This document shows positions 1 through 62,958 of a stretch of 64,000 nucleotides of DNA, piece by piece. Position 1 is the stretch's first letter. Each line of letters begins with the position of its first letter. Below the pieces are notes generated by a model. It worked only from the letters and a program-made list of their open reading frames with translations, was not told the origin of the DNA and made no database searches. The DNA lies in the NCBI RefSeq assembly GCF_035084215.1, contig NW_027139272.1, positions 124,001 through 188,000 on the forward strand, in the 5' to 3' direction. Origin of the DNA: Heptranchias perlo (taxonomy: Eukaryota). Made by a program: the position numbers and the translations under genes.

Positions 1-133
1 TAAACACATGAGGGAGAAAGGAATAGAAGGATATGCTGATCGGGGGAGATGAAGTAGGGAGGGTGCAGCAATAACACTGGCATAGACCTGTTGGGCCGAA
101 TGGCCTGTTTCTGTGTTGTAAATTCCATGTAAC
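1..133 (+). mobile_element. CR1 LINE 3' end fragment
   Basis: End of ORF2 (KHMREKGIEGY) followed by the typical CR1 3'UTR GGGCCGAATGGCCTGTTTCTGTG, seen in many copies in this window. Confidence 0.75.
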
Positions 134-159
134 GGGTCACGTTCCGGTAACGCACACAA

Positions 160-430
160 GCACCCAGTGTTCACGAGTGAGCCTTCACAGTGAGGACCAG
201 GAAGCTATTCAACCATGGGGGTATTACAATTTAGTTGAACCCCGTCCTCACCCGATGTCAACACGCACGGGCTTTCCAGCCGGGGAGACTGAGTAGGTCA
301 TCGGATTTAGGTCACCTGCCCGATTATCTCCCCCATCCCCACCCCACCCACCCCAAGGGGTACTGAGGCCAGGTGCAGCACCCCTCACTGCTACCCTGTC
401 CGGGAACAGCTGGCTCAGGACAGACTGGGA
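160..430 (-). mobile_element. Old SINE-like remnant in the alpha2-alpha3 intron
   Basis: Shares diverged motifs (GTGAGCCTT..CA, CC.GATGTC, CAGGGG..CTGAGGCCA..TG.AGC) with 16070-16310; family assignment is tentative. Confidence 0.35.
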
Positions 431-480
431 ATATAAACTTTGCCTGTACGGCACCTCCAGTTCCCGCTCGCTCGAGGTAC

Positions 481-756
481 CTTTCCTCTGTAGTGCTTCT
501 CGCCCAGCCCGAAGGTATATCAGCAGCCACTTCACACAGTCCTTTTCCAACAGGGTCTTGAAGTATTTGTTCATGAAGGTGTTCGCATTCCACCGGTCTG
601 CTAAAGTCTGGAACTCTGGATTCACCGCAATCCAACTCAATCTGTCCTTGTCAAAAACATACGCGTCCTCCCCGTCATATCCAAACTTTATAAACCCCTC
701 TGTGGAATTGTCGCTGTTCAGTTCGCAGCCACACATTCCCTGGACAAAGAAAACAC
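481..756 (-). CDS. MHC class I-like heavy chain, alpha2 domain exon
   Basis: Acceptor TTGTTTCTCCAG|GT at 756 and donor AAAG|GTACC at 481. Length is 276 bp, phase 1/1, the canonical class I alpha2 exon size. Encodes VFFVQGMCGCELNSDNSTEGFIKFGYDGED...RWNAN...LLEKDCVKWLLIYLRAGREALQRK with C101/C164, YDG and W147. Confidence 0.95.
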
Positions 757-811
757 CTGGAGAAACAACTCAAGTCAATTGAAAATGTGAAAAGGGTTCG
801 ATCGGGTACAT

Positions 812-1010
812 ACAACAACAACAACTTGCATTTATATAGCGCCTTTCACGGAGTAAAACATCACAAGGCACTTGACAAACAAAATTTGACACCGAGCCAC
901 ATGAGGAGATATCAGGACAGGTGACCAAAAGCTTGGACAAAGAGGTAGGTTTGAAGGAGCATCTTAAAGGAGGAGAGAGAGGTGGAGAGGTTTAGGGAGG
1001 GAATTCCAGA
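812..1010 (-). mobile_element. L2-type LINE 3' end
   Basis: (AAC)n tail plus TTGCATTTATATAGCGCC; reverse complement of the L2 3' ends at about 16780-16995 and 54900-55078. Confidence 0.75.
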
Positions 1011-1325
1011 GGGACTATTTCCTCAGGTGGGGGAATCAAGATCTTAGATTTAGAGCCAGGCCATTTAGGAGTGAAATCAGGAAGCACTTTATCACACAAA
1101 GGGGAGTGGGAATCAGGAACTCTCTCCCCCAAAAGGCTGTGGGATGCTGGGGACCCATTGGAGCTTTCAAGACTGAGATTGTTAAATTTTTGTTCGGTTA
1201 GGGTATCGATGGATAGGAAGCAAAGGCTGGAAAATGGAGTTACGGTGCAGATTAGCCATGATATAAATGAATGGTGGAGCAGGCTCGAGGGGCTGAATGG
1301 CCTCTTCCTCTTTCGATGCTCCTGA
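1011..1325 (+). mobile_element. CR1 LINE 3' fragment
   Basis: Similar to CR1 3' ends at 7290-7605 and 15120-15445 (RARPFR..RKHF, GGCTCGAGGGGCTGAATGGCCT). Confidence 0.75.
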
Positions 1326-1439
1326 GCAGCTGTGTTACGTTGAGGTTCCATTTATGCCCTGCTGTCTTGGACTTTAACCTTAGCAATAGGTTAGATTGTC
1401 ACAGAGAGTCATCGATCTCTGGAATTTCAGTGGGATGAG

Positions 1440-2727
1440 AACAGATCTGGTCCCGGGTAAATTGGAATCAAAGATTGTCAGGCAAAACTGTAATTGAACA
1501 GCGGGCGGCCTTTAAAGAGGAGATGGTTCGGGTACAGTCGAGGTACATTCCCAAGAGGGAGAAAGGTCGGGCAACTAAAGCCAGAGCTCCCTGGATGACA
1601 AAAGAGATAGAGAGTAAGATGAAACAGAAAAAAGGAGCATATTACAGATGTCAGGTTGATAACACAAGTGAGAACCAGGCAGAATATAGAAAGTTCAGAG
1701 GGGAAGTGAAAAAGGAAATAAGAGGGGCAAAGAGAGAGTCTGAGAATAGACTGGCGGCCAACATAAAAGGGAATCCAAAAGTCTTCTGCAGGCATCTAAA
1801 CAGTAAACAGGTAGTAAGAGGAGGGGTGGGGCCGATTAGGGACCATAAAGGAGATCTACTCATGGAGGCAGAAGAGATGGCCAAAGTACTAAATGAGTAA
1901 TTTGCATCTATTTTTACCAAGGAAGAAGATGCTGCCAGAGTCTCAGTAAAGGAAGATATAGTTAAGATACTGGATGGGCTAAAAATTGATATAGAAGAGG
2001 TACTGGAGGGCACAATTCTAAAAGGGTACAGGAACAGAGAGATCTGGGGGTATATGTGCACAAATCATTCAAGGTAGCAGGGCAGGTTCAGAAAGCAGTT
2101 AAAAAAACATCCTGGATCCTGGGCTTTTTAAATAGAGGCATAGAGTACAAAAGTGTGGAAGTCATGATGAACCTTTATAAAACATTGGTTCGGCCACAAC
2201 TGGAGTATGGTGCCCAGTTCTGGGCACCGCACTTTAGGAAGGATGTGAAGGCCTTAGAGAGGGTGCAGAATTGATTTACCAGAATGATTCCAGGGATGAG
2301 GGACTTTAGTTATGTGGATAGACTGGAGAAGCTGGGATTGTTCTCCTTGGAACAGAGACGGTTGCGAGGAGATTTGATAGAGGTGTTTAAAATCATGAAG
2401 AAACTATTCCCATTGATGGAAGAGTTAAAAACCAGAGGTCATAGATTAAAGGTGATTGGCAAAAGAACCAAAGGTGACTTGAGGAAAAACTTTTTTACAC
2501 AGCGAGTGGTTAGGATCTGGAATGCACGGCCCGAGGGGATGGTGGAGGCAGATTCAATCGTGGACTTCAAAAGGGAACTGGATAAGTAATGAAAGGAAAA
2601 AATTTGCAGGGCTACAGGGATAGGGAAGGGGAGTGGGACTAGCTGGATTGCTCTTGCATAGAACCAGCACGGACTCGATGGGCCGAATGGCCTCCTTCCG
2701 TGCTGTCACCTTTCTGTGATTCGATGA
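1440..2727 (+). mobile_element. CR1 LINE ORF2 remnant with internal deletion of the RT core
   Basis: Linker peptide APWMT...NPKVF...VGPIRD...LNE, then a jump near 2008 straight to DLGVYVH...LVRPQLEY...FFTQRVV and the 3'UTR. Confidence 0.85.
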
Positions 2728-3175
2728 ACAAGTTGCCTGCATGCACAGTGTGTGTGGGTGGACTGCAAGTGTTGGAAAGGGGACTGGCGACCAATAGAAA
2801 GTATCTCGAGTTATAGGAGGTGTGTGGGGTTAATGGGGACCAGTGATATCAGACACTGTGGTCTCCTGCACCTTCCTCGATTCCCTGGGGGGGGGGTCGC
2901 AGAGGAATCTCCCAGAGTGTTTGCTTTCCTAACTTGGCCTCAGTTTCATCCTCTTTCTTTGGCCTCTCCCAGGAGATTGTGTGACTGTGGGAGGGAGAGG
3001 GTGCTGATGGTGTGTGTGTGTGTGTTGTTTCACCGTGCCAAGACAGGACAGGCTTGATGGACCCGCCTGTCCTGATTTCATCTGTTTGTTAGTAACCCTG
3101 GCAACGCAGCTTTAGAAGAGGAGAAACAAGTGGCAGCGATGATTTCATTCCAACGTTCAAGGTGCTCACATCAAA

Positions 3176-4290
3176 TCCCTCAGTGCTGCCCCTCCCTCAG
3201 TGCTGCCCCTCCCTCAGTGCTGCCCCTCCCACAGTGCTGCCCCTCCCACAGTGCTGCCACTCCCTCAGTGCTGCCCCTCCCACAGTGCTGCCCCTCCCTC
3301 AGTGCTGCCCCTCCCACAGTGCTGCCCCTCCCTCAGTGCTGCCCTCCCTCAGTGCTGCCCCTCCCACAGTGCTGCCCCTCCCTCAGTGCTGCCCCTCCCA
3401 CAGTGCTGCCCCTCCCACAGTGCTGCCCCTCCCTCAGTGCTGCCCCTCCCACAGTGCTGCCCCTCCCTCAGTGCTGCCCCTCCCACAGTGCTGCCCCTCC
3501 CTCAGTGCTGCCCCTCCCACAGTGCTGCCCCTCCCTCAGTGCTGCCCCTCCCACAGTGCTGCCCCTCCCACAGTGCTGCCCCTCCCTCAGTGCTGCCCCT
3601 CCCACAGTGCTGCCCCTCCCTCAGTGCTGCCCCTCCCTCAGTGCTGCCCCTCCCACAGTGCTGCCCCTCCCTCAGTGCTGCCCCTCCCTCAGTGCTGCCC
3701 CTCCCACAGTGCTGCCCCTCCCTCAGTGCTGCCCCTCCCTCAGTGCTGCCCCTCCCTCAGTGCTGCCCCTCCCACAGTGCTGCCCCTCCCTCAGTGCTGC
3801 CCCTCCCTCAGTGCTGCCCCTCCCTCAGTGCTGCCCCTCCCTCAGTGCTGCCCCTCCCTCAGTGCTGCCCCTCCCTCAGTGCTGCCCCTCCCACAGTGCT
3901 GCCCCTCCCTCAGTGCTGCCCCTCCCACAGTGCTGCCCCTCCCTCAGTGCTGCCCCTCCCACAGTGCTGCCCCTCCCTCAGTGCTGCCCCTCCCACAGTG
4001 CTGCCCCTCCCTCAGTGCTGCCCCTCCCACAGTGCTGCCCCTCCCACAGTGCTGCCCCTCCCTCAGTGCTGCCCCTCCCTCAGTGCTGCCCCTCCCTCAG
4101 TGCTGCCCCTCCCTCAGTGCTGCCCCTCCCACAGTGCTGCCCCTCCCTCAGTGCTGCCCCTCCCTCAGTGCTGCCCCTCCCACAGTGCTGCCCCTCCCTC
4201 AGTGCTGCCCCTCCCTCAGTGCTGCCCCACCCTCAGTGCTGCCCCTCCCTCAGTGCTGCCCCTCCCTCAGTGCTGCCCCTCTCTCAGTGC
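3176..4290. repeat. 17-bp minisatellite CAGTGCTGCCCCTCCC(T/A), about 65 copies
   Basis: Direct periodicity of 17 bp. Confidence 0.95.
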
Positions 4291-4376
4291 TGCACTGGGA
4301 GTGCCAGCCGAGATTTTGTGCTCCAGTCTCTGGAGTGGGTCTTGAACCCACAACCTTCTGAACTAGAGGTGAGAGT
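3176..4376 (-). mobile_element. Deu-domain tRNA-derived SINE (SacSINE1/AmnSINE1-like), internally expanded and 3'-truncated
   Basis: Minus strand reads ACTCTCACCTCTAGTTCAGAAGGTTGTGGGTTCAAGACCCACTCCAGAGAC (B-box-like GGTTCAAG) and runs into the 17-bp array. Confidence 0.75.
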
Positions 4377-5648
4377 AAGAAGGTCGTGGTTTCAGGCCCC
4401 ACTCCAGAGATTTGAGCGCATAATCTGGGCTGACACTCCAGTGCAGGACTGAGGGAGCGCTGCACTGTCGGAGTGGCAGTACTGAGGGAGTGCTGCATTG
4501 TCGGAGGGGCAGTACTGAGGGAGTGATGCACTGTCGGAGGGGCAGCACTGAGGGAGTGATGCATTGTCGGAGAGGCAGTACTGAGGGAGTGATGCATTGT
4601 CGGAGGGGCAGTACTGAGGGAGCGCTGCACTGTCGGAGGGGCAGTACTGAGGGAGTGCTGCACTGTCGGAGGGGCAGTACTGAGGGAGTGCTGCACTGTC
4701 GGAGGAGCAGTACTGAGGGAGTGATGCATTGTCGGAGAGGCAGTACTGAAGGAGTGCTGCACTGTCGGCAGGGCAGTAGTGAGGGAGCGCTGCACTGTCG
4801 GAGAGGCAGTACTGAGGGAGTGCTGCACTGTCGGAGAGGCAGTACTGAGGGAGTGCTGCATTGTCGGAGGGGCAGTACTGAGGGAGTGATGCATTGTCGG
4901 AGGGGCAGTACTGAGGGAGTGATGCATTGTCGGAGAGGCAGTACTGAGGGAGTGCTGCACTGTCGGAGAGGCAGTACTGAGGGAGTGCTGCATTGTCGGA
5001 GGGGCAGTACTGAGGGAGTGATGCATTGTCGGAGGGGCAGTACTGAGGGAGTGATGCATTGTCGGAGGGGCAGTACTGAGGGAGTGATGCATTGTCGGAG
5101 GGGCAGTACTGAGGGAGTGATGCACTGTCGGAGGGGCAGTACTGAGGGAGTGATGCACTGTCGGAGGGGCAGTACTGAGGGAGTGATGCACTGTCGGAGG
5201 GGCAGTACTGAGGGAGTGATGCATTGTCGGAGGGGCAGTACTGAGGGAGTGATGCATTGTCGGAGGGGCAGTACTGAGGGAGTGATGCATTGTCGGAGGG
5301 GCAGTACTGAGGGAGTGATGCACTCTCGGAGGGACAGTACTGAGGGAGTGATGCACTATCGGAGATGCCGTCCTTCAGATGAGACGTTAAATCGAGGCCC
5401 CGTCTTCCTGTTCAAATGAACATAAAAAGAACCAATTGCTCCCATTTCTCCCTCAATCCACACCAATAAAAACAGATGAACAAATCAATCATCTCATTGC
5501 CATTTGCTGTGCTGAAAATGTCTGCCATGTTACTCCCAGATAGTGCCAATGACCAGGTCATTCCAAGTCATTTAATGGGTGTAAAGTGGTTCGGGACATT
5601 TCTCCGAGACAGGATAAGGCTCTATATGGATACAAATCCTTTCCTCCT
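4373..5648 (+). mobile_element. Deu-domain SINE with internal 33-bp expansion
   Basis: AGAAGGTCGTGGTTTCAGGCCCCACTCCAGAGA head, Deu-like core GCCGTCCTTCAGATGAGACGTTAAATCGAGGCCCCGTC, and a decayed tail ending about 40 bp from the alpha1 donor. Confidence 0.75.
4443..5363. repeat. 33-bp minisatellite GCAGTACTGAGGGAGTG(A/C)TGCA(C/T)TGTCGGAGGG, about 28 copies
   Basis: Direct periodicity of 33 bp (11-aa repeat ORFs). Confidence 0.95.
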
Positions 5649-5687
5649 GTCAGTCGATAGCTGCACCGGCTCTGTGAGGATACTCAC

Positions 5688-5948
5688 TCGAGGCACCGTG
5701 TTGCTGTCGGTAAAATATCTCGGCGTTTCCTCTGACCAGACCATGGAACCCCGCCATTGTGATGGCGATGGCGTCCCAGTGATGGTTGTCGAAGGAGTCG
5801 GCCATCCACTGCTGTCTGGGCACAGTCCGCTGCAGGGTGCTGTCGAAATACACTATCTCATAGTCATCGAGCATCGCGACCAAGCTGTACTCGGGCATCT
5901 CGGCCCCGCCACGGCTCAGTATGTAGTAAAATGCGAGGATGTGGAAAT
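5688..5948 (-). CDS. MHC class I-like heavy chain, alpha1 domain exon
   Basis: Acceptor CTGTGATCCTGCAG|AT at 5948 and donor TCGA|GTGAGTA at 5688; 261 bp, phase 1/1. Encodes FHILAFYYILSRGGAEMPEYSLVAMLDDYEIVYFDSTLQRTVPRQQWMADSFDNHHWD... with class I motifs H3, PEF-like, LDD, YFDS, PRQxW, WD. Splices in frame to the alpha2 exon (A+GT=Ser). Confidence 0.93.
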
Positions 5949-13237: not shown

Positions 13238-13802
13238 CCGTTAAAACCGGAAGTGGTCAGTTTGAAGGCGGGTTTTAGATTTTTACAATTTTTACCTTCC
13301 CACCTGCACCCAAACCCACCCGTTCATGGGGTTAAAATCGACCCCTTAGAGTTCACCTTGGCCTTGACATGCTCAGAGACTACAATAAACAGGCAGTGTT
13401 TGACCAGAAATAAATGTCAGTCATGGACACGGATTAACCAGGAGAGAAGCTGCTGTAACAGTAACTTAATCTCTTGCGCTTTTCAACACCACTCGAGTCT
13501 GAAGCTACTTATTGGTGCTTGTGTGCAGCAGGTCTGATAACCAGATCCAGTTAGAATGGAGGGACTTGTTCTGGTCACTGGGTCCCAGGGAGTGGAGTCT
13601 GAGCCTGCATCTTACAGCAGGGGTTCACACTGAGGCCCAGCCCAGTATTAACACCGAACCATCGCATCTGTTTACACCCCCTGTATTTCAATGGTCTATT
13701 CCAGACTCCCACTTTCACCCCTCCCATTCTCTTCTCAATGCACCGACTCTCACTGGCAATGGGACCACAAAGAAAAGAGAGACTCACATTCCTATTGTGA
13801 TT

Positions 13803-13948
13803 TCACCACCTCAGGACCTCCCAAAGAGTTTTACAGACAGTGAAGTATTAGTGAAGTGTAGTCACTGTTTTAATGTAGGAAACACGGCAGCCAATTTGCA
13901 CACAGCAAGATCCCACCAATAGCAACGAGATAATAGCCAGATAATCTC
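13803..13948 (-). mobile_element. SINE 3' tail fragment
   Basis: CCTCAGGAC.TCCCAAAG...GCAGCCAATTTGCACACAG, also present at 14855-14970 and 49285-49412. Confidence 0.65.
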
Positions 13949-14368
13949 CCACCCTCTCCCTGCCCACTCCCTCTCCCTCCACTCTCCCTCCTCATACCCC
14001 TCTCCCTCCCACAATCCCTCTCTGCCTCTCCCACCCTCTCCCTCTCCCTCCCCCTCCCCATCTGCCTTGTCCTCTTCCCTTTCCTCTCCCTCTCTTTGTC
14101 TGACTCCCCCTCTCCCTCCCCATCTCCCCACCTTTACCCTCTCTCTTCACTCACACACCCTCCCGCACCTCTCCCTCTCGCTCCCCTTCTCTGTCCCTTC
14201 CCCATCACCCTCCCTCTCTCCCTCTAGCTCCCCCAGCCTCTCCCTCCCCTCCACTCTCCCTCCCCTCCCCCTCAGCCTCTGCCTCCCACTCTCCCTCCGA
14301 CTCCCCCTCCCCTTCTCCCTCTCCATCTCCCTCCCACTAACCCTCTCCCTCCCTTTCCCCCTCCCCCT
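13948..14368. repeat. CT-rich low-complexity polypyrimidine tract
   Basis: Almost pure C/T on the plus strand. Confidence 0.85.
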
Positions 14369-14989
14369 CAGTTTGAGCATGACGTCCACTGACTGGATTT
14401 GGTGACATTGTTCAATGTTCTGTTATCCTCATGGATTGCTGTTCTGAGGAGCCTCATGTTAAGCGCGACTCGAAGACGGTGCATTGAAAATTAACATAAA
14501 AATCTGTCTGTGAATTTGCTTCGATGCCAATTTATTCTAATTCACCCAGATCAACATCACTGTGAGTATTTTTGCCTCGAGCACCAGTTGATTATTGAAG
14601 AGTCAGCAGCTCATTCTCCCCACAATCGGACACACAGAGTTCACTTTGGCCTTGACCCGCTCAGAGACTATAATAAACGGGCAGTGTTTGCTCAGAAATA
14701 AAAGTCAGTCGTGGGCCTGAGCAACACATCGGACATCGGACAGTCCAAAGTCCATTGTGTTGCTGTGAGGTGAAGGTGGGAACGGGGGGCCAGGCTTCGA
14801 ATCTGCTTCGATTTCAGTGTCACCCTGCTGAAGCAGCACAAGAAGGTTCGGAAAGAACAAAAGATCTTTTTATACATCACCTTTCACAACCTCAGGATGT
14901 CCCAAAGCGCTTCACAGAAAGTGAAGTAATGTGAAAGTGTCATCACTGTTGTAATGTGGGAAACGCCATTCATTATGAGAAGTACTTTC

Positions 14990-15443
14990 ATACTGGGGGC
15001 TGAAAGGGTTAAATTATGAGGACAGGTTGCACAGACTCGGCTTGTATTCCCTTGAGTGCAGAAGATTAACGGGTGCTGTAATTAAGATCATTGAAGGATT
15101 TGATATTGTAGATAGAGAGAAACTATTTCCTCCGGTGGGAGAGTCCAGAACAAGGGGGCGTCACCTTAAAATTAGAGCCAGGCCGTTCAGGGGTGATGTC
15201 AGGAAGCGTTTCTTCACACAAAGGGGAGTGGAAATCTGGAACTCTCTCCCCCAAAATGCTGTTGAGGCTGGGGGTCAATTGAAAATTTCACAACTGAGAT
15301 TTATCGATTTTTGTTAGGTCAGGGTATTATGGGATATGGCACCAAGGCGGGTGGGTGGAGTTAAGATACAGATTGGCCATGATCTAATTGAATGGCGGAA
15401 CAGGATCGAGGGGCTGAATGGCCTCCCCCTGTTCCTATGTTCC
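14990..15443 (+). mobile_element. CR1 LINE 3' fragment
   Basis: [35 protein letters not shown] followed by the 3'UTR. Confidence 0.85.
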
Positions 15444-15639
15444 AATGAGGTGCTTTGACTGTGTACAGCAACTTACAATAAAACAGTGTACTGGGAGACA
15501 CCTCAGAGCACAGAGCAGGAGGAAGGAGACCAAAGAGAGGATTTAAGAGGAGCCAGAATCACGGACAGAAGGGGAGTCAGGAACTGTGTGGAGACAGGAA
15601 GGAACAAGACAGGAATCCTGAGGGAGACTGCTGGAGAAC

Positions 15640-20756: not shown

Positions 20757-23700
20757 GATCAATGGTGGGATTCCCCCCTGTCTGTCTGGTGTTTTGGTCA
20801 GTCTGGGAGCGGTCACTGATGGTGAGATTCCCCCCTGTCTGTCTGGTGTTTTGGTCAGTCTGGGAGCGGTGACTGATGGTGAGATTCCCCCTCTGTCTGT
20901 CTGGTGTTTTGGTCAGTCTGGGAGCGGTCACTGATGGTGAGATTCCCCCCTGTCTGTCTGGTGTTTTGGTCAGTCTGGGAGCGGTCACTGATGGTGAGAT
21001 TCCCCCCTGTCTGTCTGGTGTTTTGGTCAGTCTGGGAGCGGTGATTGATGGTGGGATTCCCCCCTGTCTGTCTGGTGTTTTGGTCAGTCTGGGAGCGGTG
21101 ATCGATGGTGGGATTCCCCTCTGTCTGTCTGGTGTTTTGGTCAGTCTGGGAGCGGTGACTGATGGTGAGATTCCCCCCTGTCTGTCTGGTGTTTTGGTCA
21201 GTCTGGGAGCGGTGACTGATGGTGAGATTCCCCTCTGTCTGTCTGGTGTTTTGGTCAGTCTGGGAGCGGTGATTGATGGTGAGATTCCCCCCTGTCTGTC
21301 TGGTGTTTTGGTCAGTCTGGGAGCGGTGATTGATGGTGAGATTCCCCCCTGTCTGTCTGGTGTTTTGGTCAGTCTGGGAGCGGTGATTGATGGTGAGATT
21401 CCCCCCTGTCTGTCTGGTGTTTTGGTCAGTCTGGGAGCGGTGATTGATGGTGAGATTCCCCTCTGTCTGTCTGGTGTTTTGGTCAGTCTGGGACAGGTGA
21501 TTGATGGTGAGATTCCCCCCTGTCTGTCTGGTGTTTTGGTCAGTCTGGGAGCGGTCTCTGATGGTGAGATTCCCCCCTGTCTGTCTGGTGTTTTGGTCAG
21601 TCTGGGAGCGGTGATTGATGGTGAGATTCCCCCCTGTCTGTCTGGTGTTTTGGTCAGTCTGGGAGCGGTGATTGATGGTGAGATTCCCCCCTGTCTGTCT
21701 GGTGTTTTGGTCAGTCTGGGACAGGTGATTGATGGTGAGATTCCCCCCTGTCTGTCTGGTGTTTTGGTCAGTCTGGGAGCGGTCTCTGATGGTGAGATTC
21801 CCCCCTGTCTGTCTGGTGTTTTGGTCAGTCTGGGACAGGTGATTGATGGTGAGATTACCCCCTGTCTGTCTGGTGTTTTGGTCAGTCTGGGAGCGGTGAT
21901 TGATGGTGAGATACCCCCCTGTCTGTCTGGTGTTTTGGTCAGTCTGGGAGCGGTGATTGATGGTGAGATTCCCCCCTGTCTGTCTGGTGTTTTGGTCAGT
22001 CTGGGAGCGGTGACTGATGGTGAGATTCCCCTCTGTCTGTCTGGTGTTTTGGTCAGTCTGGGAGCGGTGATCAATGGTGGGATTCCCCCCTGTCTGTCTG
22101 GTGTTTTGGTCAGTCTGGGAGCGGTGATTAATGGAGAGATTCCCCTCTGTCTGTCTGGTGTTTTGGTCAGTCTGGGAGCGGTGATTCATGGTGAGATTCC
22201 CCTCTGTCTGTCTGGTGTTTTGGTCAGTCTGGGAGCGGTGATCAATGGTGGGATTCCCCCCTGTCTGTCTGGTGTTTTGGTCAGTCTGGGAGCGGTGATT
22301 AATGGAGAGATTCCCCTCTGTCTGTCTGGTGTTTTGGTCAGTCTGGGAGCGGTGATTCATGGTGAGATTCCCCTCTGTCTGTCTGGTGTTTTGGTCAGTC
22401 TGGGAGCGGTGATTGATTGTGAGATTCCCCTCTGTCTGTCTGGTGTTTTGGTCAGTCTGGGAGCGGAGATTGATGGTGAGATTCCCCCCTGTCTGTCTGG
22501 TGTTTTGGTCAGTCTGGGAGCGGTGACTGATGGTGGGATTCCCCCCTGTCTGTCTGGTGTTTTGCTCAGTCTGGGAGCGGTGATTAATGGTGAGATTCCC
22601 CCCTGTCTGTCTGGTGTTTTGGTCAGTCTGGGAGCGGTGATTGATGGTGGGATTCTCCCCTGTCTGTCTGATGTTTTGGTCAGTCTGGGAGCGGTGATTC
22701 ATGGTGAGATTCCCCTCTGTCTGTCTGGTGTTTTGGTCAGTCTGGGAGCGGTGATTGATGGTGGGATTCTCCCCTGTCTGTCTGGTGTTTTGGTCAGTCT
22801 GGGAGCGGTGATTGATGGTGAGATTCCCCCCTGTCTGTCTGGTGTTTTGGTCAGTCTGGGAGCGGTGATTGATGGTGGGATTCTCCCCTGTCTGTCTGGT
22901 GTTTTGGTCAGTCTGGGAGCGGTGATTCATGGTGAGATTCCCCTCTGTCTGTCTGGTGTTTTGGTCAGTCTGGGAGCGGTGATTGATGGTGAGATTCCCC
23001 CCTGTCTGTCTGGTGTTTTGGTCAGTCTGGGAGCGGTGATTGATGGTGGGATTCTCCCCTGTCTGTCTGGTGTTTTGGTCAGTCTGGGAGCGGTGACTGA
23101 TGGTGGGATTCCCCTCTGTCTGTCTGGTGTTTTGGTCAGTCTGGGAGCGGTCACTGATGGTTAGATTCCCCTCTGTCTGTCTGGTGTTTTGGTCAGTCTG
23201 GGAGCGGTCACTGATGGTGAGATTCCCCCCTGTCTGTCTGGTGTTTTGGTCAGTCTGGGAGCGGTGACTGATGGTGGGATTCCCCTCTGTCTGTCTGGTG
23301 TTTTGTTCAGTCTGGGAGCGGTGACTGATGGTGAGATTCCCCTCTGTCTGTCTGGTGTTTTGGTCAGTCTGGGAGCGGTGACTGATGGTGAGATTCCCCC
23401 TCTGTCTGTCTGGTGTTTTGGTCAGTCTGGGAGCGGTGACTAATGGTGAGATTCCCCTCTGTCTGTCTGGTGTTTTGGTCAGTCTGGGAGCGGTGACTGA
23501 TGGTGAGATTCCCCTCTGTCTGTCTGGTGTTTTGGTCAGTCTGGGAGCGGTGACTGATGGTGAGATTCCCCTCTGTCTGTCTGGTGTTTTGGTCAGTCTG
23601 GGAGCGGTCACTGATGGTGAGATTCCCCTCTGTCTGTCTGGTGTTTTGGTCAGTCTGGGAGCGGTCACTGATGGTGAGATTCCCCCTCTGTCTGTCTGGT

Positions 23701-26700
23701 GTTTTGGTCAGTCTGGGAGCGGTCACTGATGGTGAGATTCCCCCCCGTGTCTGTCTGGTGTTTTGGTCAGTCTGGGAGTGGTGATTGATGGTGAGATTCC
23801 CCTCTGTCTGTCTGGTGTTTTGGTCAGTCTGGGAGCGGTGATTGATGGTGAGATTCCCCCCTGTCTGTCTGGTGTTTTGGTCAGTCTGGGAGCGGTGATT
23901 GATGGTGGGATTCCCCCCTGTCTGTCTGGTGTTTTGGTCAGTCTGGGAGCGGTGACTGATGGTGAGATTCCCCTCTGTCTGTCTGGTGTTTTGGTCAGTC
24001 TGGGAGCGGTCACTGATGGTGAGATTCCCCTCTGTCTGTCTGGTGTTTTGGTCAGTCTGGGAGCGGTCACTGATGGTGAGATTCCCCCTCTGTCTGTCTG
24101 GTGTTTTGGTCAGTCTGGGAGCGGTCACTGATGGTGAGATTCCCCCTTGTCTGTCTGGTGTTTTGGTCAGTCTGGGAGCGGTGATTGATGGTGAGATTCC
24201 CCTCTGTCTGTCTGGTGTTTTGGTCAGTCTGGGAGCGGTGATTGATGGTGAGATTCCCCTCTGTCTGTCTGGTGTTTTGGTCAGTCTGGGAGTGGTGATT
24301 GATGGTGAGATTCCGCCCTGTCTGTCTGGTGTTTTGGTCAGTCTGGGAGCGGTGATTGATGGTGGGATTCCCCCCTGTCTGTCTGGTGTTTTGGTCAGTC
24401 TGGGAGCGGTGATTGATGGTGAGATTCCCCCATGTCTGTCTGGTGTTTTGGTCAGTCTGGGAGCGGTGATTGATGGTGAGATTCCCCCCTGTCTGTCTGG
24501 TGTTTTGGTCAGTCTGGGAGCGGTGATTGATGGTGAGATTCCCCCATGTCTGTCTGGTGTTTTGGTCAGTCTGGGAGCGGTGACTGATGGTGAGATTCCC
24601 CTCTGTCTGTCTGGTGTTTTGGTCAGTCTGGGAGCGGTGATCAATGGTGGGATTCCCCCCTGTCTGTCTGGTGTTTTGGTCAGTCTGGGAGCGGTGATTA
24701 ATGGAGAGATTCCCCTCTGTCTGTCTGGTGTTTTGGTCAGTCTGGGAGCGGTGATTCATGGTGAGATTCCCCTCTGTCTGTCTGGTGTTTTGGTCAGTCT
24801 GGGAGCGGTGATCAATGGTGGGATTCCCCCCTGTCTGTCTGGTGTTTTGGTCAGTCTGGGAGCGGTGATTAATGGAGAGATTCCCCTCTGTCTGTCTGGT
24901 GTTTTGGTCAGTCTGGGATCGGTGATTCATGGTGAGATTCCCCTCTGTCTGTCTGGTGTTTTGGTCAGTCTGGGAGCGGTGATTGATTGTGAGATTCCCC
25001 TCTGTCTGTCTGGTGTTTTGGTCAGTCTGGGAGCGGAGATTGATGGTGAGATTCCCCCCTGTCTGTCTGGTGTTTTGGTCAGTCTGGGAGCGGTGACTGA
25101 TGGTGGGATTCCCCCCTGTCTGTCTGGTGTTTTGCTCAGTCTGGGAGCGGTGATTAATGGTGAGATTCCCCCCTGTCTGTCTGGTGTTTTGGTCAGTCTG
25201 GGAGCGGTGATTGATGGTGGGATTCTCCCCTGTCTGTCTGATGTTTTGGTCAGTCTGGGAGCGGTGATTCATGGTGAGATTCCCCTCTGTCTGTCTGGTG
25301 TTTTGGTCAGTCTGGGAGCGGTGATTGATGGTGGGATTCTCCCCTGTCTGTCTGGTGTTTTGGTCAGTCTGGGAGCGGTGATTGATGGTGAGATTCCCCC
25401 CTGTCTGTCTGGTGTTTTGGTCAGTCTGGGAGCGGTGATTGATGGTGGGATTCTCCCCTGTCTGTCTGGTGTTTTGGTCAGTCTGGGAGCGGTGATTCAT
25501 GGTGAGATTCCCCTCTGTCTGTCTGGTGTTTTGGTCAGTCTGGGAGCGGTGATTGATGGTGAGATTCCCCCCTGTCTGTCTGGTGTTTTGGTCAGTCTGG
25601 GAGCGGTGATTGATGGTGGGATTCTCCCCTGTCTGTCTGGTGTTTTGGTCAGTCTGGGAGCGGTGACTGATGGTGGGATTCCCCTCTGTCTGTCTGGTGT
25701 TTTGGTCAGTCTGGGAGCGGTCACTGATGGTTAGATTCCCCTCTGTCTGTCTGGTGTTTTGGTCAGTCTGGGAGCGGTCACTGATGGTGAGATTCCCCCC
25801 TGTCTGTCTGGTGTTTTGGTCAGTCTGGGAGCGGTGACTGATGGTGGGATTCCCCTCTGTCTGTCTGGTGTTTTGTTCAGTCTGGGAGCGGTCACTGATG
25901 GTGAGATTCCCCTCTGTCTGTCTGGTGTTTTGGTCAGTCTGGGAGCGGTGACTGATGGTGAGATTCCCCCTCTGTCTGTCTGGTGTTTTGGTCAGTCTGG
26001 GAGCGGTGACTGATGGTGAGATTCCCCTCTGTCTGTCTGGTGTTTTGGTCAGTCTGGGAGCGGTGACTGATGGTGAGATTCCCCTCTGTCTGTCTGGTGT
26101 TTTGGTCAGTCTGGGAGCGGTGACTGATGGTGAGATTCCCCTCTGTCTGTCTGGTGTTTTGGTCAGTCTGGGAGCGGTCACTGATGGTGAGATTCCCCTC
26201 TGTCTGTCTGGTGTTTTGGTCAGTCTGGGAGCGGTCACTGATGGTGAGATTCCCCCTCTGTCTGTCTGGTGTTTTGGTCAGTCTGGGAGCGGTCACTGAT
26301 GGTGAGATTCCCCCCCGTGTCTGTCTGGTGTTTTGGTCAGTCTGGGAGTGGTGATTGATGGTGAGATTCCCCTCTGTCTGTCTGGTGTTTTGGTCAGTCT
26401 GGGAGCGGTGATTGATGGTGAGATTCCCCCCTGTCTGTCTGGTGTTTTGGTCAGTCTGGGAGCGGTGATTGATGGTGGGATTCCCCCCTGTCTGTCTGGT
26501 GTTTTGGTCAGTCTGGGAGCGGTGACTGATGGTGAGATTCCCCTCTGTCTGTCTGGTGTTTTGGTCAGTCTGGGAGCGGTCACTGATGGTGAGATTCCCC
26601 TCTGTCTGTCTGGTGTTTTGGTCAGTCTGGGAGCGGTCACTGATGGTGAGATTCCCCCTCTGTCTGTCTGGTGTTTTGGTCAGTCTGGGAGCGGTCACTG

Positions 26701-29700
26701 ATGGTGAGATTCCTCCTTGTCTGTCTGGTGTTTTGGTCAGTCTGGGAGCGGTGATTGATGGTGAGATTCCCCTCTGTCTGTCTGGTGTTTTGGTCAGTCT
26801 GGGAGCGGTGATTGATGGTGAGATTCCCCTCTGTCTGTCTGGTGTTTTGGTCAGTCTGGGAGTGGTGATTGATGGTGAGATTCCGCCCTGTCTGTCTGGT
26901 GTTTTGGTCAGTCTGGGAGCGGTGATTGATGGTGGGATTCCCCCCTGTCTGTCTGGTGTTTTGGTCAGTCTGGGAGCGGTGATTGATGGTGAGATTCCCC
27001 CATGTCTGTCTGGTGTTTTGGTCAGTCTGGGAGCGGTGATTGATGGTGAGATTCCCCCCTGTCTGTCTGGTGTTTTGGTCAGTCTGGGAGCGGTGATTGA
27101 TGGTGAGATTCCCCCATGTCTGTCTGGTGTTTTGGTCAGTCTGGGAGCGGTGACTGATGGTGAGATTCCCCTCTGTCTGTCTGGTGTTTCGGTCAGTCTG
27201 GGAGCGGTGATTGATGGTGAGATTCCCCCCTGTCTGTCTGGTGTTTTGGTCAGTCTGGGAGCGGTGATTGATGGTGAGATTCCCCCATGTCTGTCTGGTG
27301 TTTTGGTCAGTCTGGGAGCGGTGATTGATGGTGGGATTCCCCTCTGTCTGTCTGGTGTTTTGGTCAGTCTGGGAGCGGTGATTGATGGTGAGATTCCCCC
27401 CTGTCTGTCTGGTGTTTTGGTCAGTCTGGGAGCGGTGATTGATGGTGAGATTCCCCTCTGTCTGTCTGGTGTTTTGGTCAGTCTGGGAGTGGTGACTGAT
27501 GGTGAGATTCCCCCTCTGTCTGTCTGGTGTTTTGGTCAGTCTGGGAGCGGTCACTGATGGTGAGATTCCCCCCCGTGTCTGTCTGGTGTTTTGGTCAGTC
27601 TGGGAGTGGTGATTGATGGTGAGATTCCCCTCTGTCTGTCTGGTGTTTTGGTCAGTCTGGGAGCGGTGATTGATGGTGAGATTCCCCCCTGTCTGTCTGG
27701 TGTTTTGGTCAGTCTGGGAGCGGTGATTGATGGTGGGATTCCCCCCTGTCTGTCTGGTGTTTTGGTCAGTCTGGGAGCGGTGACTGATGGTGAGATTCCC
27801 CTCTGTCTGTCTGGTGTTTTGGTCAGTCTGGGAGCGGTCACTGATGGTGAGATTCCCCTCTGTCTGTCTGGTGTTTTGGTCAGTCTGGGAGCGGTCACTG
27901 ATGGTGAGATTCCCCCTCTGTCTGTCTGGTGTTTTGGTCAGTCTGGGAGCGGTCACTGATGGTGAGATTCCCCCTTGTCTGTCTGGTGTTTTGGTCAGTC
28001 TGGGAGCGGTGATTGATGGTGAGATTCCCCTCTGTCTGTCTGGTGTTTTGGTCAGTCTGGGAGCGGTGATTGATGGTGAGATTCCCCTCTGTCTGTCTGG
28101 TGTTTTGGTCAGTCTGGGAGTGGTGATTGATGGTGAGATTCCGCCCTGTCTGTCTGGTGTTTTGGTCAGTCTGGGAGCGGTGATTGATGGTGGGATTCCC
28201 CCCTGTCTGTCTGGTGTTTTGGTCAGTCTGGGAGCGGTGATTGATGGTGAGATTCCCCCATGTCTGTCTCGTGTTTTGGTCAGTCTGGGAGCGGTGATTG
28301 ATGGTGAGATTCCCCCCTGTCTGTCTGGTGTTTTGGTCAGTCTGGGAGCAGTGATTGATGGTGAGATTCCCCCATGTCTGTCTGGTGTTTTGGTCAGTCT
28401 GGGAGCGGTGACTGATGGTGAGATTCCCCTCTGTCTGTCTGGTGTTTTGGTCAGTCTGGGAGCGGTGATTGATGGTGAGATTCCCCCCTGTCTGTCTGGT
28501 GTTTTGGTCAGTCTGGGAGCGGTGATTGATGGTGAGATTCCCCCATGTCTGTCTGGTGTTTTGGTCAGTCTGGGAGCGGTGATTGATGGTGGGATTCCCC
28601 TCTGTCTGTCTGGTGTTTTGGTCAGTCTGGGAGCGGTGATTGATGGTGAGATTCCCCCCTGTCTGTCTGGTGTTTTGGTCAGTCTGGGAGCGGTGATTGA
28701 TGGTGAGATTCCCCCATGTCTGTCTGGTGTTTTGGTCAGTCTGGGAGCGGTGATTGATGGTGAGATTCCCCCCTGTCTGTCTGGTGTTTTGGTCAGTCTG
28801 GGAGCGGTGATTGATGGTGAGATTCCCCCATGTCTGTCTGGTGTTTTGGTCAGTCTGGGAGCGGTGACTGATGGTGAGATTCCCCTCTGTCTGTCTGGTG
28901 TTTTGGTCAGTCTGGGAGCGGTGATTGATGGTGAGATTCCCCCCTGTCTGTCTGGTGTTTTGGTCAGTCTGGGAGCGGTGATTGATGGTGAGATTCCCCC
29001 ATGTCTGTCTGGTGTTTTGGTCAGTCTGGGAGCGGTGATTGATGGTGGGATTCCCCTCTGTCTGTCTGGTGTTTTGGTCAGTCTGGGAGCGGTGATTGAT
29101 GGTGAGATTCCCCCATGTCTGTCTGGTGTTTTGGTCAGTCTGGGAGCGGTGATTGATGGTGAGATTCCCCTCTGTCTGTCTGGTGTTTTGGTCAGTCTGG
29201 GAGCGGTCACTGATGGTGAGATTCCCCTCTGTCTGTCTGGTGTTTTGGTCAGTCTGGGAGCGGTGATTGAAGGTGAGATTCCCCCTCTGTCTGTCTGGTG
29301 TTTTGGTCAGTCTGGGAGCGGTCACTGATGGTGAGATTCCCCCTCTGTCTGTCTGGTGTTTTGGTCAGTCTGGGAGCGGTGACTGATGGTGAGATTCCCC
29401 CCTGTCTGTCTGGTGTTTTGGTCAGTCTGGGAGCGGTGATTGATGGTGAGATTCCCCCCTGTCTGTCTGGTGTTTTGGTCAGTCTGGGAGCGGTGACTGA
29501 TGGTGAGATTCCCCCTCTGTCTGTCTGGTGTTTTGGTCAGTCTGGGAGCGGTCACTGATGGTGAGATTCATCCCCGTGTCTGTCTGGTGTTTTGGTCAGT
29601 CTGGGAGTGGTGATTGATGGTGAGATTCCCCTCTGTCTGTCTGGTGTTTTGGTCAGTCTGGGAGCGGTGATTGATGGTGAGATTCCCCCCTGTCTGTCTG

Positions 29701-32700
29701 GTGTTTTGGTCAGTCTGGGAGCGGTGATTGATGGTGGGATTCCCCCCTGTCTGTCTGGTGTTTTGGTCAGTCTGGGAGCGGTGACTGATGGTGAGATTCC
29801 CCTCTGTCTGTCTGGTGTTTTGGTCAGTCTGGGAGCGGTCACTGATGGTGAGATTCCCCTCTGTCTGTCTGGTGTTTTGGTCAGTCTGGGAGCGGTCACT
29901 GATGGTGAGATTCCCCCTCTGTCTGTCTGGTGTTTTGGTCAGTCTGGGAGCGGTCACTGATGGTGAGATTCCCCCTTGTCTGTCTGGTGTTTTGGTCAGT
30001 CTGGGAGCGGTGATTGATGGTGAGATTCCCCTCTGTCTGTCTGGTGTTTTGGTCAGTCTGGGAGCGGTGATTGATGGTGAGATTCCCCTCTGTCTGTCTG
30101 GTGTTTTGGTCAGTCTGGGAGTGGTGATTGATGGTGAGATTCCGCCCTGTCTGTCTGGTGTTTTGGTCAGTCTGGGAGCGGTGACTGATGGTGAGATTCC
30201 CCTCTGTCTGTCTGGTGTTTTGGTCAGTCTGGGAGCGGTGATCAATGGTGGGATTCCCCCCTGTCTGTCTGGTGTTTTGGTCAGTCTGGGAGCGGTGATT
30301 AATGGAGAGATTCCCCTCTGTCTGTCTGGTGTTTTGGTCAGTCTGGGAGCGGTGATTGATGGTGAGATTCCCCTCTGTCTGTCTGGTGTTTTGGTCAGTC
30401 TGGGAGCGGTGATCAATGGTGGGATTCCCCCCTGTCTGTCTGGTGTTTTGGTCAGTCTGGGAGCGGTGATTAATGGAGAGATTCCCCTCTGTCTGTCTGG
30501 TGTTTTGGTCAGTCTGGGATCGGTGATTCATGGTGAGATTCCCCTCTGTCTGTCTGGTGTTTTGGTCAGTCTGGGAGCGGTGATTGATTGTGAGATTCCC
30601 CTCTGTCTGTCTGGTGTTTTGGTCAGTCTGGGAGCGGAGATTGATGGTGAGATTCCCCCCTGTCTGTCTGGTGTTTTGGTCAGTCTGGGAGCGGTGACTG
30701 ATGGTGGGATTCCCCCCTGTCTGTCTGGTGTTTTGCTCAGTCTGGGAGCGGTGATTAATGGTGAGATTCCCCCCTGTCTGTCTGGTGTTTTGGTCAGTCT
30801 GGGAGCGGTGATTGATGGTGGGATTCTCCCCTGTCTGTCTGATGTTTTGGTCAGTCTGGGAGCGGTGATTCATGGTGAGATTCCCCTCTGTCTGTCTGGT
30901 GTTTTGGTCAGTCTGGGAGCGGTGATTGATGGTGGGATTCTCCCCTGTCTGTCTGGTGTTTTGGTCAGTCTGGGAGCGGTGATTGATGGTGAGATTCCCC
31001 CCTGTCTGTCTGGTGTTTTGGTCAGTCTGGGAGCGGTGATTGATGGTGGGATTCTCCCCTGTCTGTCTGGTGTTTTGGTCAGTCTGGGAGCGGTGATTCA
31101 TGGTGAGATTCCCCTCTGTCTGTCTGGTGTTTTGGTCAGTCTGGGAGCGGTGATTGATGGTGAGATTCCCCCCTGTCTGTCTGGTGTTTTGGTCAGTCTG
31201 GGAGCGGTGATTGATGGTGGGATTCTCCCCTGTCTGTCTGGTGTTTTGGTCAGTCTGGGAGCGGTGACTGATGGTGGGATTCCCCTCTGTCTGTCTGGTG
31301 TTTTGGTCAGTCTGGGAGCGGTCACTGATGGTTAGATTCCCCTCTGTCTGTCTGGTGTTTTGGTCAGTCTGGGAGCGGTCACTGATGGTGAGATTCCCCC
31401 CTGTCTGTCTGGTGTTTTGGTCAGTCTGGGAGCGGTGACTGATGGTGGGATTCCCCTCTGTCTGTCTGGTGTTTTGTTCAGTCTGGGAGCGGTCACTGAT
31501 GGTGAGATTCCCCTCTGTCTGTCTGGTGTTTTGGTCAGTCTGGGAGCGGTGACTGATGGTGAGATTCCCCCTCTGTCTGTCTGGTGTTTTGGTCAGTCTG
31601 GGAGCGGTGACTGATGGTGAGATTCCCCTCTGTCTGTCTGGTGTTTTGGTCAGTCTGGGAGCGGTGACTGATGGTGAGATTCCCCTCTGTCTGTCTGGTG
31701 TTTTGGTCAGTCTGGGAGCGGTGACTGATGGTGAGATTCCCCTCTGTCCGTCTGGTGTTTTGGTCAGTCTGGGAGCGGTCACTGATGGTGAGATTCCCCT
31801 CTGTCTGTCTGGTGTTTTGGTCAGTCTGGGAGCGGTCACTGATGGTGAGATTCCCCCTCTGTCTGTCTGGTGTTTTGGTCAGTCTGGGAGCGGTCACTGA
31901 TGGTGAGATTCCCCCCCGTGTCTGTCTGGTGTTTTGGTCAGTCTGGGAGTGGTGATTGATGGTGAGATTCCCCTCTGTCTGTCTGGTGTTTTGGTCAGTC
32001 TGGGAGCGGTGATTGATGGTGAGATTCCCCCCTGTCTGTCTGGTGTTTTGGTCAGTCTGGGAGCGGTGATTGATGGTGGGATTCCCCCCTGTCTGTCTGG
32101 TGTTTTGGTCAGTCTGGGAGCGGTGACTGATGGTGAGATTCCCCTCTGTCTGTCTGGTGTTTTGGTCAGTCTGGGAGCGGTCACTGATGGTGAGATTCCC
32201 CTCTGTCTGTCTGGTGTTTTGGTCAGTCTGGGAGCGGTCACTGATGGTGAGATTCCCCCTCTGTCTGTCTGGTGTTTTGGTCAGTCTGGGAGCGGTCACT
32301 GATGGTGAGATTCCCCCTTGTCTGTCTGGTGTTTTGGTCAGTCTGGGAGCGGTGATTGATGGTGAGATTCCCCTCTGTCTGTCTGGTGTTTTGGTCAGTC
32401 TGGGAGCGGTGATTGATGGTGAGATTCCCCTCTGTCTGTCTGGTGTTTTGGTCAGTCTGGGAGTGGTGATTGATGGTGAGATTCCGCCCTGTCTGTCTGG
32501 TGTTTTGGTCAGTCTGGGAGCGGTGATTGATGGTGGGATTCCCCCCTGTCTGTCTGGTGTTTTGGTCAGTCTGGGAGCGGTGATTGATGGTGAGATTCCC
32601 CCATGTCTGTCTGGTGTTTTGGTCAGTCTGGGAGCGGTGATTGATGGTGAGATTCCCCCCTGTCTGTCTGGTGTTTTGGTCAGTCTGGGAGCGGTGATTG

Positions 32701-51271: not shown

Positions 51272-51666
51272 GAGTTGTGCAACTGGTTCTGTGACTCAGA
51301 CTGTGGACAGAGACTGTCGAGAGGAGAGGTGAACAGCTTTTAAACAAGTGCAATCAGGCAAAAGGGAAAGAACAAAAGGGAAGGTCTGTGGTAGGGCGGG
51401 GAGCAGGAGTGGTTAAATGGCAAAAGGAGGTGATAATTGGACAAATGTGGGCAGAGGAGGTGGAAATGGTGACAGCAGAATAACAGAGGGGGAAGGGAGC
51501 AGTGAAAATCGGTCAAAGTGGAGAGGGTTGACATGGCCCCGGGAATGTGGCGGACAAAAGACAGGGAGACCCCAGGGGTGCGGACCACCCCACCGGCCAT
51601 GTACTGACAGGGGATCCCCACCCCAAGTACCAGCTACAGGGCCCTGGGGATAGAGCAGGGCCAAGG

Positions 51667-62186: not shown

Positions 62187-62958
62187 AATGGCAGGGCGTT
62201 GGGGAGAGTTATAGAACAAAGAGATCTAGGAGTACAGGTTCATAGCTCCTTGAAAGTGGAGTCACAGGTGGATAGGGTGGTGAAGAAGGCATTCAGCATG
62301 CTTGGTTTCATTGGTCAGAACATTGAATACAGGAGTTGGGATGTCTTGTTAAAGTTGTACAAGACATTAGTACGGCCACACTTGGAATACTGTGTACAGT
62401 TCTGGTCACCCTATTATAGAAAGGATATTATTAAACTGGAAAGAGTGCAGAAAAGATTTACTAGGATGCTACCGGGACTTGATGGTTTGACTTATAGGGA
62501 GAGGTTAGATAGACTGGGACTGTTTTCCCTGGAGAGTAGGAGGTTTAGGGGTGATCTTATAGAAGTCTATAAAATAATGAGGGGCATAGATAAGGTAGAT
62601 AATCAAAATCTTTTCCCAAAGGTAGGGGAGTCTATAACGAGGGGACATAGATTTAAGGTGAGAGGGGAGAGATACAAAAGGGTCCAGAGGGGCAATTTTT
62701 TCACTCAAAGGATGGTGAGTGTCTGGAACGAGCTGCCAGAGGCAGTAGTAGAGGCGGGTACAATTTTGTCCTTTAAAAAGCATTTGTACAGTTACATGGG
62801 TAAGATGGGTATAGAGGGATATGGGCCAAGTGCAGGCAATTGGGACGAGCTTAGTGGTATAAACTGGGCGACATAGACATGTTGGGGTGAAGGGTTAGGG
62901 TTAGGGTTAGGGTTAGGGTTAATGCAGCGTTTCCATGTTGTAAACTTCTATGATTCTA
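62187..62958 (+). mobile_element. 5'-truncated CR1 LINE with an open ORF2 C-terminus
   Basis: DLGVQVH..LVRPHLEYCVQFWSP..FFTQRMVSVWNEL..GYGPSAGNWD, then 3'UTR and TTCTATGA tail. Confidence 0.92.
62891..62921 (+). repeat. Short interstitial telomeric sequence AGGG(TTAGGG)4TTA
   Basis: Perfect vertebrate telomeric hexamers inside the CR1 3'UTR. Confidence 0.92.

What the first reader, a model, noticed from the sequence alone, without database searches (positions are those of the whole stretch)
481..5948. Nonclassical MHC class I-like gene with a hydrophobic, non-peptide-type groove
Seen: intact in-frame alpha1 and alpha2 exons. By-eye alignment to HLA-A2 numbering gives F7, H59, Q84, A123, L143, R146, W147, L159, Y171. 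Established: classical class I keeps Y7, Y59, Y/R84, Y/F123, T143, K146, W147, Y159, Y171 to hold peptide termini; here only W147 and Y171 are unchanged. Groove-facing positions are largely apolar (L5, F7, Y9, L24, I63, M67, F70, L73, V74, I80, F81, V95, I114, F116, F156), while beta2m-contact residues Q96, D119, G120 and D122 are kept. Inference: a beta2m-binding nonclassical molecule that presents lipid or another hydrophobic ligand, like CD1 or chicken YF1. It may be a member of a described cartilaginous-fish nonclassical lineage or an undescribed one.
Basis: partly seen in the sequence, partly recalled or inferred. Interest (0 to 1): 0.8.

Follow-up and report, generated by a model that had tools for sequence, protein, structure and literature searches.

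The report
Amplified shark lipid-type MHC sister lineage
This is a shark immune gene of a class I family kept in both sharks and rays, with an unusually greasy binding groove that likely displays lipids rather than peptides; this genome's assembly holds twelve near-identical copies, and the copy in this window lacks its first exon and is probably inactive.

Summary
Observation confirmed: intact alpha1 (5688-5948) and alpha2 (481-756) exons, minus strand, canonical splice sites, 2 of 9 peptide anchors kept. Alpha3 and transmembrane exons lie just beyond the window start. An identical protein is named from Heptranchias perlo; orthologs occur in 17 shark and ray species. The closest structure is shark UGA (9CH4, 41%), reported by a review to bind lipids, but the true UGA ortholog is a separate neighbouring gene. 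This gene forms its own clade (100/100), grouped with UGA and UFA (99/99), and is absent from the one published lineage query set I could read. Its groove is more apolar than UGA's; its tail lacks the YxxPhi motif most UGA tails carry. Alpha1/alpha2 are under purifying selection among copies; DNA depth suggests about 7-fold. The family is spliced in RNA contigs. Five of 12 copies, including this one, lack the leader exon, here lost between 2.2-kb direct repeats. Lipid binding is inferred, not shown; unseen UFA/UGA papers may already name the lineage.

The parts
5688..5948 (-). alpha1 exon of the nonclassical class I gene (86 codons, phase 1/1)
   Evidence: protein identical in 10 of 12 copies
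481..756 (-). alpha2 exon (C101-C164 pair kept, extra C99, N-glycan sequon in the beta1-beta2 loop)
   Evidence: RNA contig covers exactly 481-756; protein identical in 12 of 12 copies
757..5687 (-). alpha1-alpha2 intron with LINE-like reverse-transcriptase fragments and 17-bp (3176-4293) and 33-bp (4443-5364) minisatellites
1..480 (-). start of the alpha2-alpha3 intron; alpha3 (C1105:121687-121959) and TM/cytoplasmic exon (C1105:117098-117288) lie beyond the window start and are intact
13432..15637 (.). single 2.2-kb repeat where the copy on C1080 has two direct repeats (95.7% alike) flanking the 1080-bp segment that holds the leader exon; likely crossover product marking loss of exon 1
   Evidence: intron-side alleles at the low end, promoter-side alleles at the high end, mosaic between
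20762..37945 (.). 57-bp satellite (301 copies), part of the amplified unit
47544..48665 (+). single-exon C2H2 zinc-finger ORF (374 aa, 9 fingers) co-amplified with the class I gene
   Evidence: 12 copies at about 100% identity, ORF open in 11 of 11 full-length copies

Best explanation
The exons belong to a nonclassical MHC class I lineage shared by sharks and rays and distinct from its neighbour UGA, whose product likely pairs with beta2-microglobulin and likely holds a lipid or similar apolar ligand in a groove that has lost 7 of 9 peptide anchors. Shown: gene structure, orthologs, tree position, groove chemistry, splicing, 12 assembled copies, loss of the leader exon in this copy. Inferred: the ligand would load without the peptide pathway (N86 glycan site lost); lacking a tyrosine sorting motif, the protein would stay at the surface or in early endosomes while UGA would recycle through late endosomes. 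In this shark a 151-172 kb unit (class I + zinc finger + TRIM) was amplified, likely as one inverted array between UFA and UGA; unequal crossover at 2.2-kb repeats adds or removes the leader exon, so the window copy is likely silent while leader-bearing copies are expressed.
For: Anchors 2/9; mean hydropathy of 39 groove positions 1.11-1.59 in 11 orthologs, 10 of 11 above all 52 other rows (UGA 0.36-1.17, UAA-like -0.03). 22 of 39 groove residues identical to this genome's UGA versus 9 to UAA-like, 8 to MR1-like. Best fold match shark UGA 9CH4: Foldseek rank 1, 41% identity; VIA Z 28.7, rmsd 2.0, 268 aligned. Trees: own clade 100/100, UGA 100/99, joined with UFA 99/99 on alpha1+alpha2, 92/89 with groove columns removed. 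A review states UFA and UGA bind CD1d-like lipids (PMC12562908, passage, personal communication). Alpha1/alpha2 are more conserved across species (74/76%) than alpha3 (64%). Among 12 copies alpha1+alpha2 show 6 synonymous and 2 non-synonymous variant sites (p=0.0014; flanking introns vary at about 5% of sites, synonymous 5.5%, non-synonymous 0.5%). YxxPhi in 0 of 17 tails versus 11 of 16 UGA tails, 10 of them membrane-proximal. RNA contig ends exactly at the alpha2 splice sites. C1203 carries ZNF+/TRIM+ then TRIM-/ZNF-, as an inversion centre would.
Against: The alpha3 tree does not join this clade to UGA or UFA, and UFA is a single long branch. CD1 itself was not in the trees. Groove positions are not significantly more invariant than other alpha1/alpha2 positions (22/39 vs 59/139, p=0.15). 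Fold Z-scores of classical bird class I (27.9) and MR1 (27.1) are within about 1-2 of UGA. DNA depth gives about 7-fold (101.7 vs 14-15), not 12, and contig depth is a weak copy measure. Tails come from automatic gene models; the H. perlo UGA isoform retrieved has no YxxPhi. All runs are one sample.
Confidence: 0.68

Rival explanations
1. The protein is a class I fold with a closed or non-presenting apolar groove, acting as a carrier or receptor partner like HFE, FcRn or ZAG, not as a T-cell ligand.
For: Strong conservation of alpha1/alpha2 and no polymorphism fit a fixed partner; bulky F7, Y9, Y22, F70, F116, F156, W167 could fill the groove; ZAG Z 26.2 and HFE Z 25.6 are close in fold score.
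Against: Small floor residues G97 and C99 are invariant in 11 of 11 orthologs and A26 nearly so, which would leave a cavity; nearest relatives UGA/UFA are reported to bind lipids; it sits in the class Ib cluster.
Confidence: 0.15
2. It binds a small aromatic metabolite or a lipopeptide, MR1-like, as the automatic RefSeq name suggests.
For: MR1 is the best PDB sequence hit for alpha2 alone (E=2e-21); H59 is shared with the MR1-like row; W147, W167 and Y171 are kept.
Against: MR1's K43 and R9 positions are T and Y (MR1 roles recalled); only 8 of 39 groove residues match; trees place MR1-like far away.
Confidence: 0.1
3. The 12 copies are largely an assembly artefact (uncollapsed haplotypes or mis-joins) of a one- or two-copy gene.
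For: All copies are on small unplaced contigs; depth ratio about 7 is below 12.
Against: Three copies in tandem on each of C1105 and C1097; copies differ at about 5% of intron sites collectively, in leader number (0-4) and in TRIM stops (4 of 11); depth is about 7 times that of single-copy UGA in the same run.
Confidence: 0.08

Closest known systems
Shark UGA (PDB 9CH4, nurse shark label in PMC10751288 supplement)
   Same: Best sequence and fold match (41-45%); adjacent gene in this genome, skate and sawfish; shared G97, F70, M152, Y155, F156, L159, L160, D163; apolar groove; beta2m contacts.
   Different: Separate clade in sharks and rays (about 40% identity; within-clade 64-76%); the UGA ortholog is another gene (C1080:363-370 kb); C99 vs F99, I80 vs mostly charged 80, M/V67 vs mostly polar 67; N86 sequon lost; no YxxPhi tail; amplified here while UGA is single.
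Shark UFA (PDB 8GM8)
   Same: Same alpha1+alpha2 clade; apolar groove; same class Ib cluster (UFA-type gene at C1101:256-263 kb).
   Different: 26% alpha1+alpha2 identity to the UFA-like row, 5 of 39 groove residues; fold Z 22.5; UFA has a reshaped alpha2.
CD1 (chicken CD1-1 3JVG, human CD1d) and chicken YF1 (3P73)
   Same: Loss of peptide anchors, apolar groove, glycine at 97; fold Z 26.4, 23.9 and 26.9.
   Different: 21-27% identity; orthology not tested; no tyrosine tail motif; W147, W167, Y171 kept.
Classical UAA, UDA, UEA-like, MR1
   Same: Class I fold, alpha2 disulfide (absent in the UEA-like rows), exon structure.
   Different: UAA-like 8/9 and UDA 7/9 anchors with polar grooves; separate branches in all trees.

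Membership tests
Classical class I (UAA) | Conserved peptide-terminus anchors (list recalled) | tested here: not met
   2 of 9 versus 8 of 9 in the UAA-like row
Classical class I (UAA) | Clusters with UAA; variable groove | tested here: not met
   Separate branches; groove residues unchanged in 12 of 12 copies; population polymorphism not tested
UGA | Orthology to the sequences labelled UGA | tested here: not met
   Labelled nurse shark and skate UGA match the neighbouring gene and P0181, not this one (by eye); two clades, each with sharks and rays
UGA | Apolar non-peptide groove | tested here: met
   More apolar than UGA; 22 of 39 positions identical
UGA | Location in the class Ib cluster | tested here: met
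   On contigs with UGA (C1080) and with UDA, UEA-like, UFA (C1101); sawfish gene inferred to lie between B2M and COL11A2/RXRB
UFA/UGA lipid-type clade | Common ancestry of the groove domains | tested here: met
   99/99 on alpha1+alpha2, 92/89 without groove columns, 96 on the ectodomain; unresolved on alpha3
UFA/UGA lipid-type clade | Binds lipid | not testable with these tools
   Needs lipidomics or a structure
UFA | Orthology to labelled UFA | tested here: not met
   UFA-type gene is separate (C1101:256-263 kb); 26% identity
UDA | Most anchors kept, polar groove | tested here: not met
   UDA rows 7/9 anchors, hydropathy -0.25 to -0.55
UEA/UCA | Shark-only range (recalled from Almeida 2021, paper not readable) and clustering with the UEA-like row | tested here: not met
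   Orthologs in 6 rays and skates; separate branch
CD1 | Orthology to tetrapod CD1 | not tested
   No CD1 among the stored proteins; only fold scores
CD1 | Tyrosine endosomal sorting motif (most CD1; recalled) | tested here: not met
   0 of 17 tails
MR1 | K43 and R9 (recalled) | tested here: not met
   T and Y at these positions
beta2m-associated class I | Binds beta2m | tested here: inconclusive
   Q96, D119, G120, D122, Y35, R48 kept; binding itself not modelled or measured
Functional class I gene (this copy) | Leader exon with ATG and signal peptide | tested here: not met
   Absent here and in 4 other copies; present in 7 of 12

The most novel reading that the evidence does not exclude
Sharks and rays carry a third, unnamed lipid-presenting class I lineage that has split the work with UGA since before they diverged, as CD1a does with CD1b/d: UGA sorted to late endosomes by a tyrosine motif, this one sampling surface lipids with the most apolar groove of the family. 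In this shark it has been raised in dosage by an inverted amplicon of about 2 Mb, with active copy number tuned by gain and loss of the leader exon.
Probability: 0.3. Interest if true: 0.75.

Novelty: new variant of a known kind. Interest (0 to 1): 0.55.

Why it matters
Whether lipid presentation is as old as peptide presentation, and whether shark UFA/UGA are related to CD1, is open (PMC10751288, PMC12562908). A third, more conserved and more apolar member gives a better outgroup for that question and a direct test of compartment-specific lipid sampling in the oldest jawed vertebrates. The papers read call UFA and UGA single- or low-copy; a homogeneous 7-12-fold amplification of their relative under purifying selection is an exception a specialist would note.

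Tried and rejected
Single-sequence fold failed (pLDDT 35); the 90-row alignment gave pLDDT 86.7 but no coordinates, so groove collapse could not be tested. A strict Ig-C1 pattern missed alpha3; tblastn found it. Apparent TRIM and zinc-finger breaks were artefacts of repeat masking, corrected. My first array model (tandem only, C1101 following C1080) found no support at the C1101 start and was replaced by the inverted model. The idea that C99 is unique was dropped: 4 matches among the 149 representatives scanned, and nurse shark UAA has it. The holocephalan sequence labelled UGA joins neither clade; no holocephalan or Heterodontus ortholog was listed, which shows no absence. No Rfam match in 144 kb. 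The ESM atlas gave only generic class I clusters. Earlier scan notes: nothing. The run search listed no holder on record as RNA; the three RNA labels are guesses, backed by exon-only cover. No complex prediction with beta2m was run: it would pass by likeness to solved structures. The RNA contig has the majority alleles at 701/707, not this copy's, but contigs drop rare variants, so this does not show this copy silent.

Full report
Observation. The two exons are real: alpha1 at 5948-5688 and alpha2 at 756-481 on the minus strand, AG/GT-bounded, phase 1/1, in frame. Pfam MHC_I and PDB class I hits confirm the family. The anchor and groove position lists are recalled textbook sets.

Rest of the gene. 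Alpha3 (C1105:121687-121959) and the TM/cytoplasmic exon (117098-117288) lie beyond the window start and are intact. The leader exon, found 10.7 kb upstream of alpha1 in the C1080 copy, is missing here. On C1080 it sits in a 1080-bp segment between two 2.2-kb direct repeats (95.7% alike); the window has a single repeat at 13432-15637 and lacks the segment. That repeat carries intron-side alleles at its low end and promoter-side alleles at its high end, mosaic between, as a crossover product would. A genome search finds 11 leader exons, none in the window; 7 of 12 gene copies have at least one (up to four), 5 have none. This copy is therefore likely silent as a surface protein (inference).

Identity. 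[quoted passage not shown] Orthologs at 59-72% occur in named records of 11 sharks and 6 rays and skates. The best PDB sequence match of the whole protein is 9CH4 (E=1.8e-70), titled shark nonclassical class I UGA; the AlphaFold model (pLDDT 86.7) matches it best (41%, rmsd 2.0, Z 28.7), though classical bird class I and MR1 follow within 1-2 Z units. The UGA ortholog, however, is another gene, at C1080:363-370 kb, whose exons resemble the labelled nurse shark UGA (by eye). In trees of stored proteins (63 rows quick; 36 of these careful; 27 without groove columns) this lineage and UGA are separate clades, each with sharks and rays, so the split predates the shark-ray divergence. They join with a UFA-like row at 99/99 on alpha1+alpha2 and 92/89 without groove columns; alpha3 alone does not resolve the join. 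Labels for UAA, UBA, UDA, UEA, UFA, MR1 rows were given by eye; CD1 was not available. In skate the two genes have consecutive accessions on one 127-kb contig; in the sawfish table one 'class I-related' gene precedes three 'F10-like' genes between B2M and COL11A2/RXRB, which I infer to be this gene and UGA paralogs.

Groove and tail. Two of nine anchors remain. Mean hydropathy over 39 groove positions is 1.11-1.59 in 11 orthologs; 10 of 11 exceed all 52 other rows. 22 of 39 positions equal this genome's UGA. G97 and C99 on the floor are invariant in 11 of 11. Alpha1/alpha2 are better conserved than alpha3 (74/76% vs 64%), but groove positions are not significantly more invariant than other alpha1/alpha2 sites (p=0.15). 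The N86 sequon, present in 13 of 13 UGA rows, is absent in 11 of 11, replaced by one in the alpha2 beta1-beta2 loop; YxxPhi is in 0 of 17 tails against 11 of 16 UGA tails, one of those distal. Tails come from automatic models.

Amplification. Twelve copies with identical alpha2 protein lie on eight unplaced contigs, three in tandem on each of C1105 and C1097 at 151-172 kb spacing. The unit also holds a 374-aa C2H2 zinc-finger ORF (12 copies, open in 11 of 11 full-length ones) and a TRIM gene (11 copies, 4 with a stop in exon 1). C1101 joins the array to UDA, UEA-like and UFA genes, C1080 joins it to UGA, both on the gene's 3' side; C1203 has ZNF and TRIM in mirror order with no class I gene. 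One inverted array between UFA and UGA fits all this (inference). Among 12 copies alpha1+alpha2 have 6 synonymous and 2 non-synonymous variant sites (p=0.0014), alpha3 1 and 4 (p=0.73); introns vary at 57 of 1221 and 14 of 281 sites. Some variants may predate the amplification. DNA contig depth is 101.7 here against 14-15 at UGA in the same run, about 7-fold; the tool warns that depth is no copy number, and 7 versus 12 is unexplained (unequal haplotypes, or both haplotypes assembled).

Expression. In a run guessed to be RNA a 1438-nt contig covers exactly 481-756 and continues on both sides; two more such runs start at 481. The 350 nt on the 5' side would fit alpha1, leader and 37 nt of UTR (lengths only). 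It bears the alleles of 9 of 12 copies, not this one's; the three copies with this copy's alleles are all leaderless. One sample only.

Literature. PMC10751288: passages and supplement parts 18, 97, 98 plus searches read; its query set names UAA, UAA-2, UBA, UCA, UDA, UFA, UGA, UHA and contains no sequence of this lineage, while its tables mark cluster genes only as MHC-Ib. PMC12562908: passages read; lipid binding by UFA/UGA is cited as personal communication. Almeida 2020 and 2021 were not held; what I say of UEA range is recalled. Nine searches (listings only) found no primary UFA/UGA paper and nothing on this species' MHC; subscription journals, a thesis and bioRxiv supplements are outside my view, so the lineage may already be named as a UGA sublineage (I put this near even odds).

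Verdict. A real, conserved, UGA-related but distinct nonclassical class I lineage that works most likely as a lipid presenter (0.68), amplified in this genome; the window copy itself is likely a leaderless, inactive member. New variant of a known kind; interest 0.55.

Noticed in passing
G000:C1105:294501-304500 (L129) and C1486:21342-42459: The leader exon is itself tandemly repeated at about 6.9-kb spacing (2 on one C1105 copy, 4 on C1486), so leader number runs 0-4 among copies.
   Followed up: partly
window 47544-48665: C2H2 zinc-finger ORF kept open in 11 of 11 full copies while the TRIM passenger has a stop in 4 of 11; it could also be a target of the amplification.
   Followed up: partly
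G000:C1203:1-277147: Mirror arrangement ZNF+/TRIM+ ... TRIM-/ZNF-, the likely centre of a large inverted array; sequence not fetched.
   Followed up: partly
L054:2900-3800 (C1080:362900-363800): The UGA ortholog is spliced in two RNA-type runs; most UGA tails carry a CD1-like YxxPhi motif, a point I did not see in the passages read.
   Followed up: partly
G000:C1101:13812-263087: Class Ib cluster: UDA, five UEA-like genes lacking the alpha2 cysteine at 101, and a UFA-type gene with a LINE in its first intron.
   Followed up: partly
G000:C1050:45932-374239: Cluster of at least 7 class I genes with a shared alpha3 resembling the 'UAA-2' query, one with a stop in alpha2.
   Followed up: no
proteins P0130 and P0065: The holocephalan sequence labelled UGA in the 2023 supplement joins neither elasmobranch UGA nor this lineage in my trees; that label may need review.
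   Followed up: partly
proteins P0104 and P0140: Unnamed class I proteins with apolar grooves (3/9 and 2/9 anchors) branch next to the UGA/UFA/this-lineage clade at 86 SH-aLRT; source unknown.
   Followed up: no
window 20762-45408, 51665-52927, 59481-63999: Long satellites of 57, 25, 45, 49 and 22 bp make up much of the unit; C1080 ends inside the 57-bp array.
   Followed up: no
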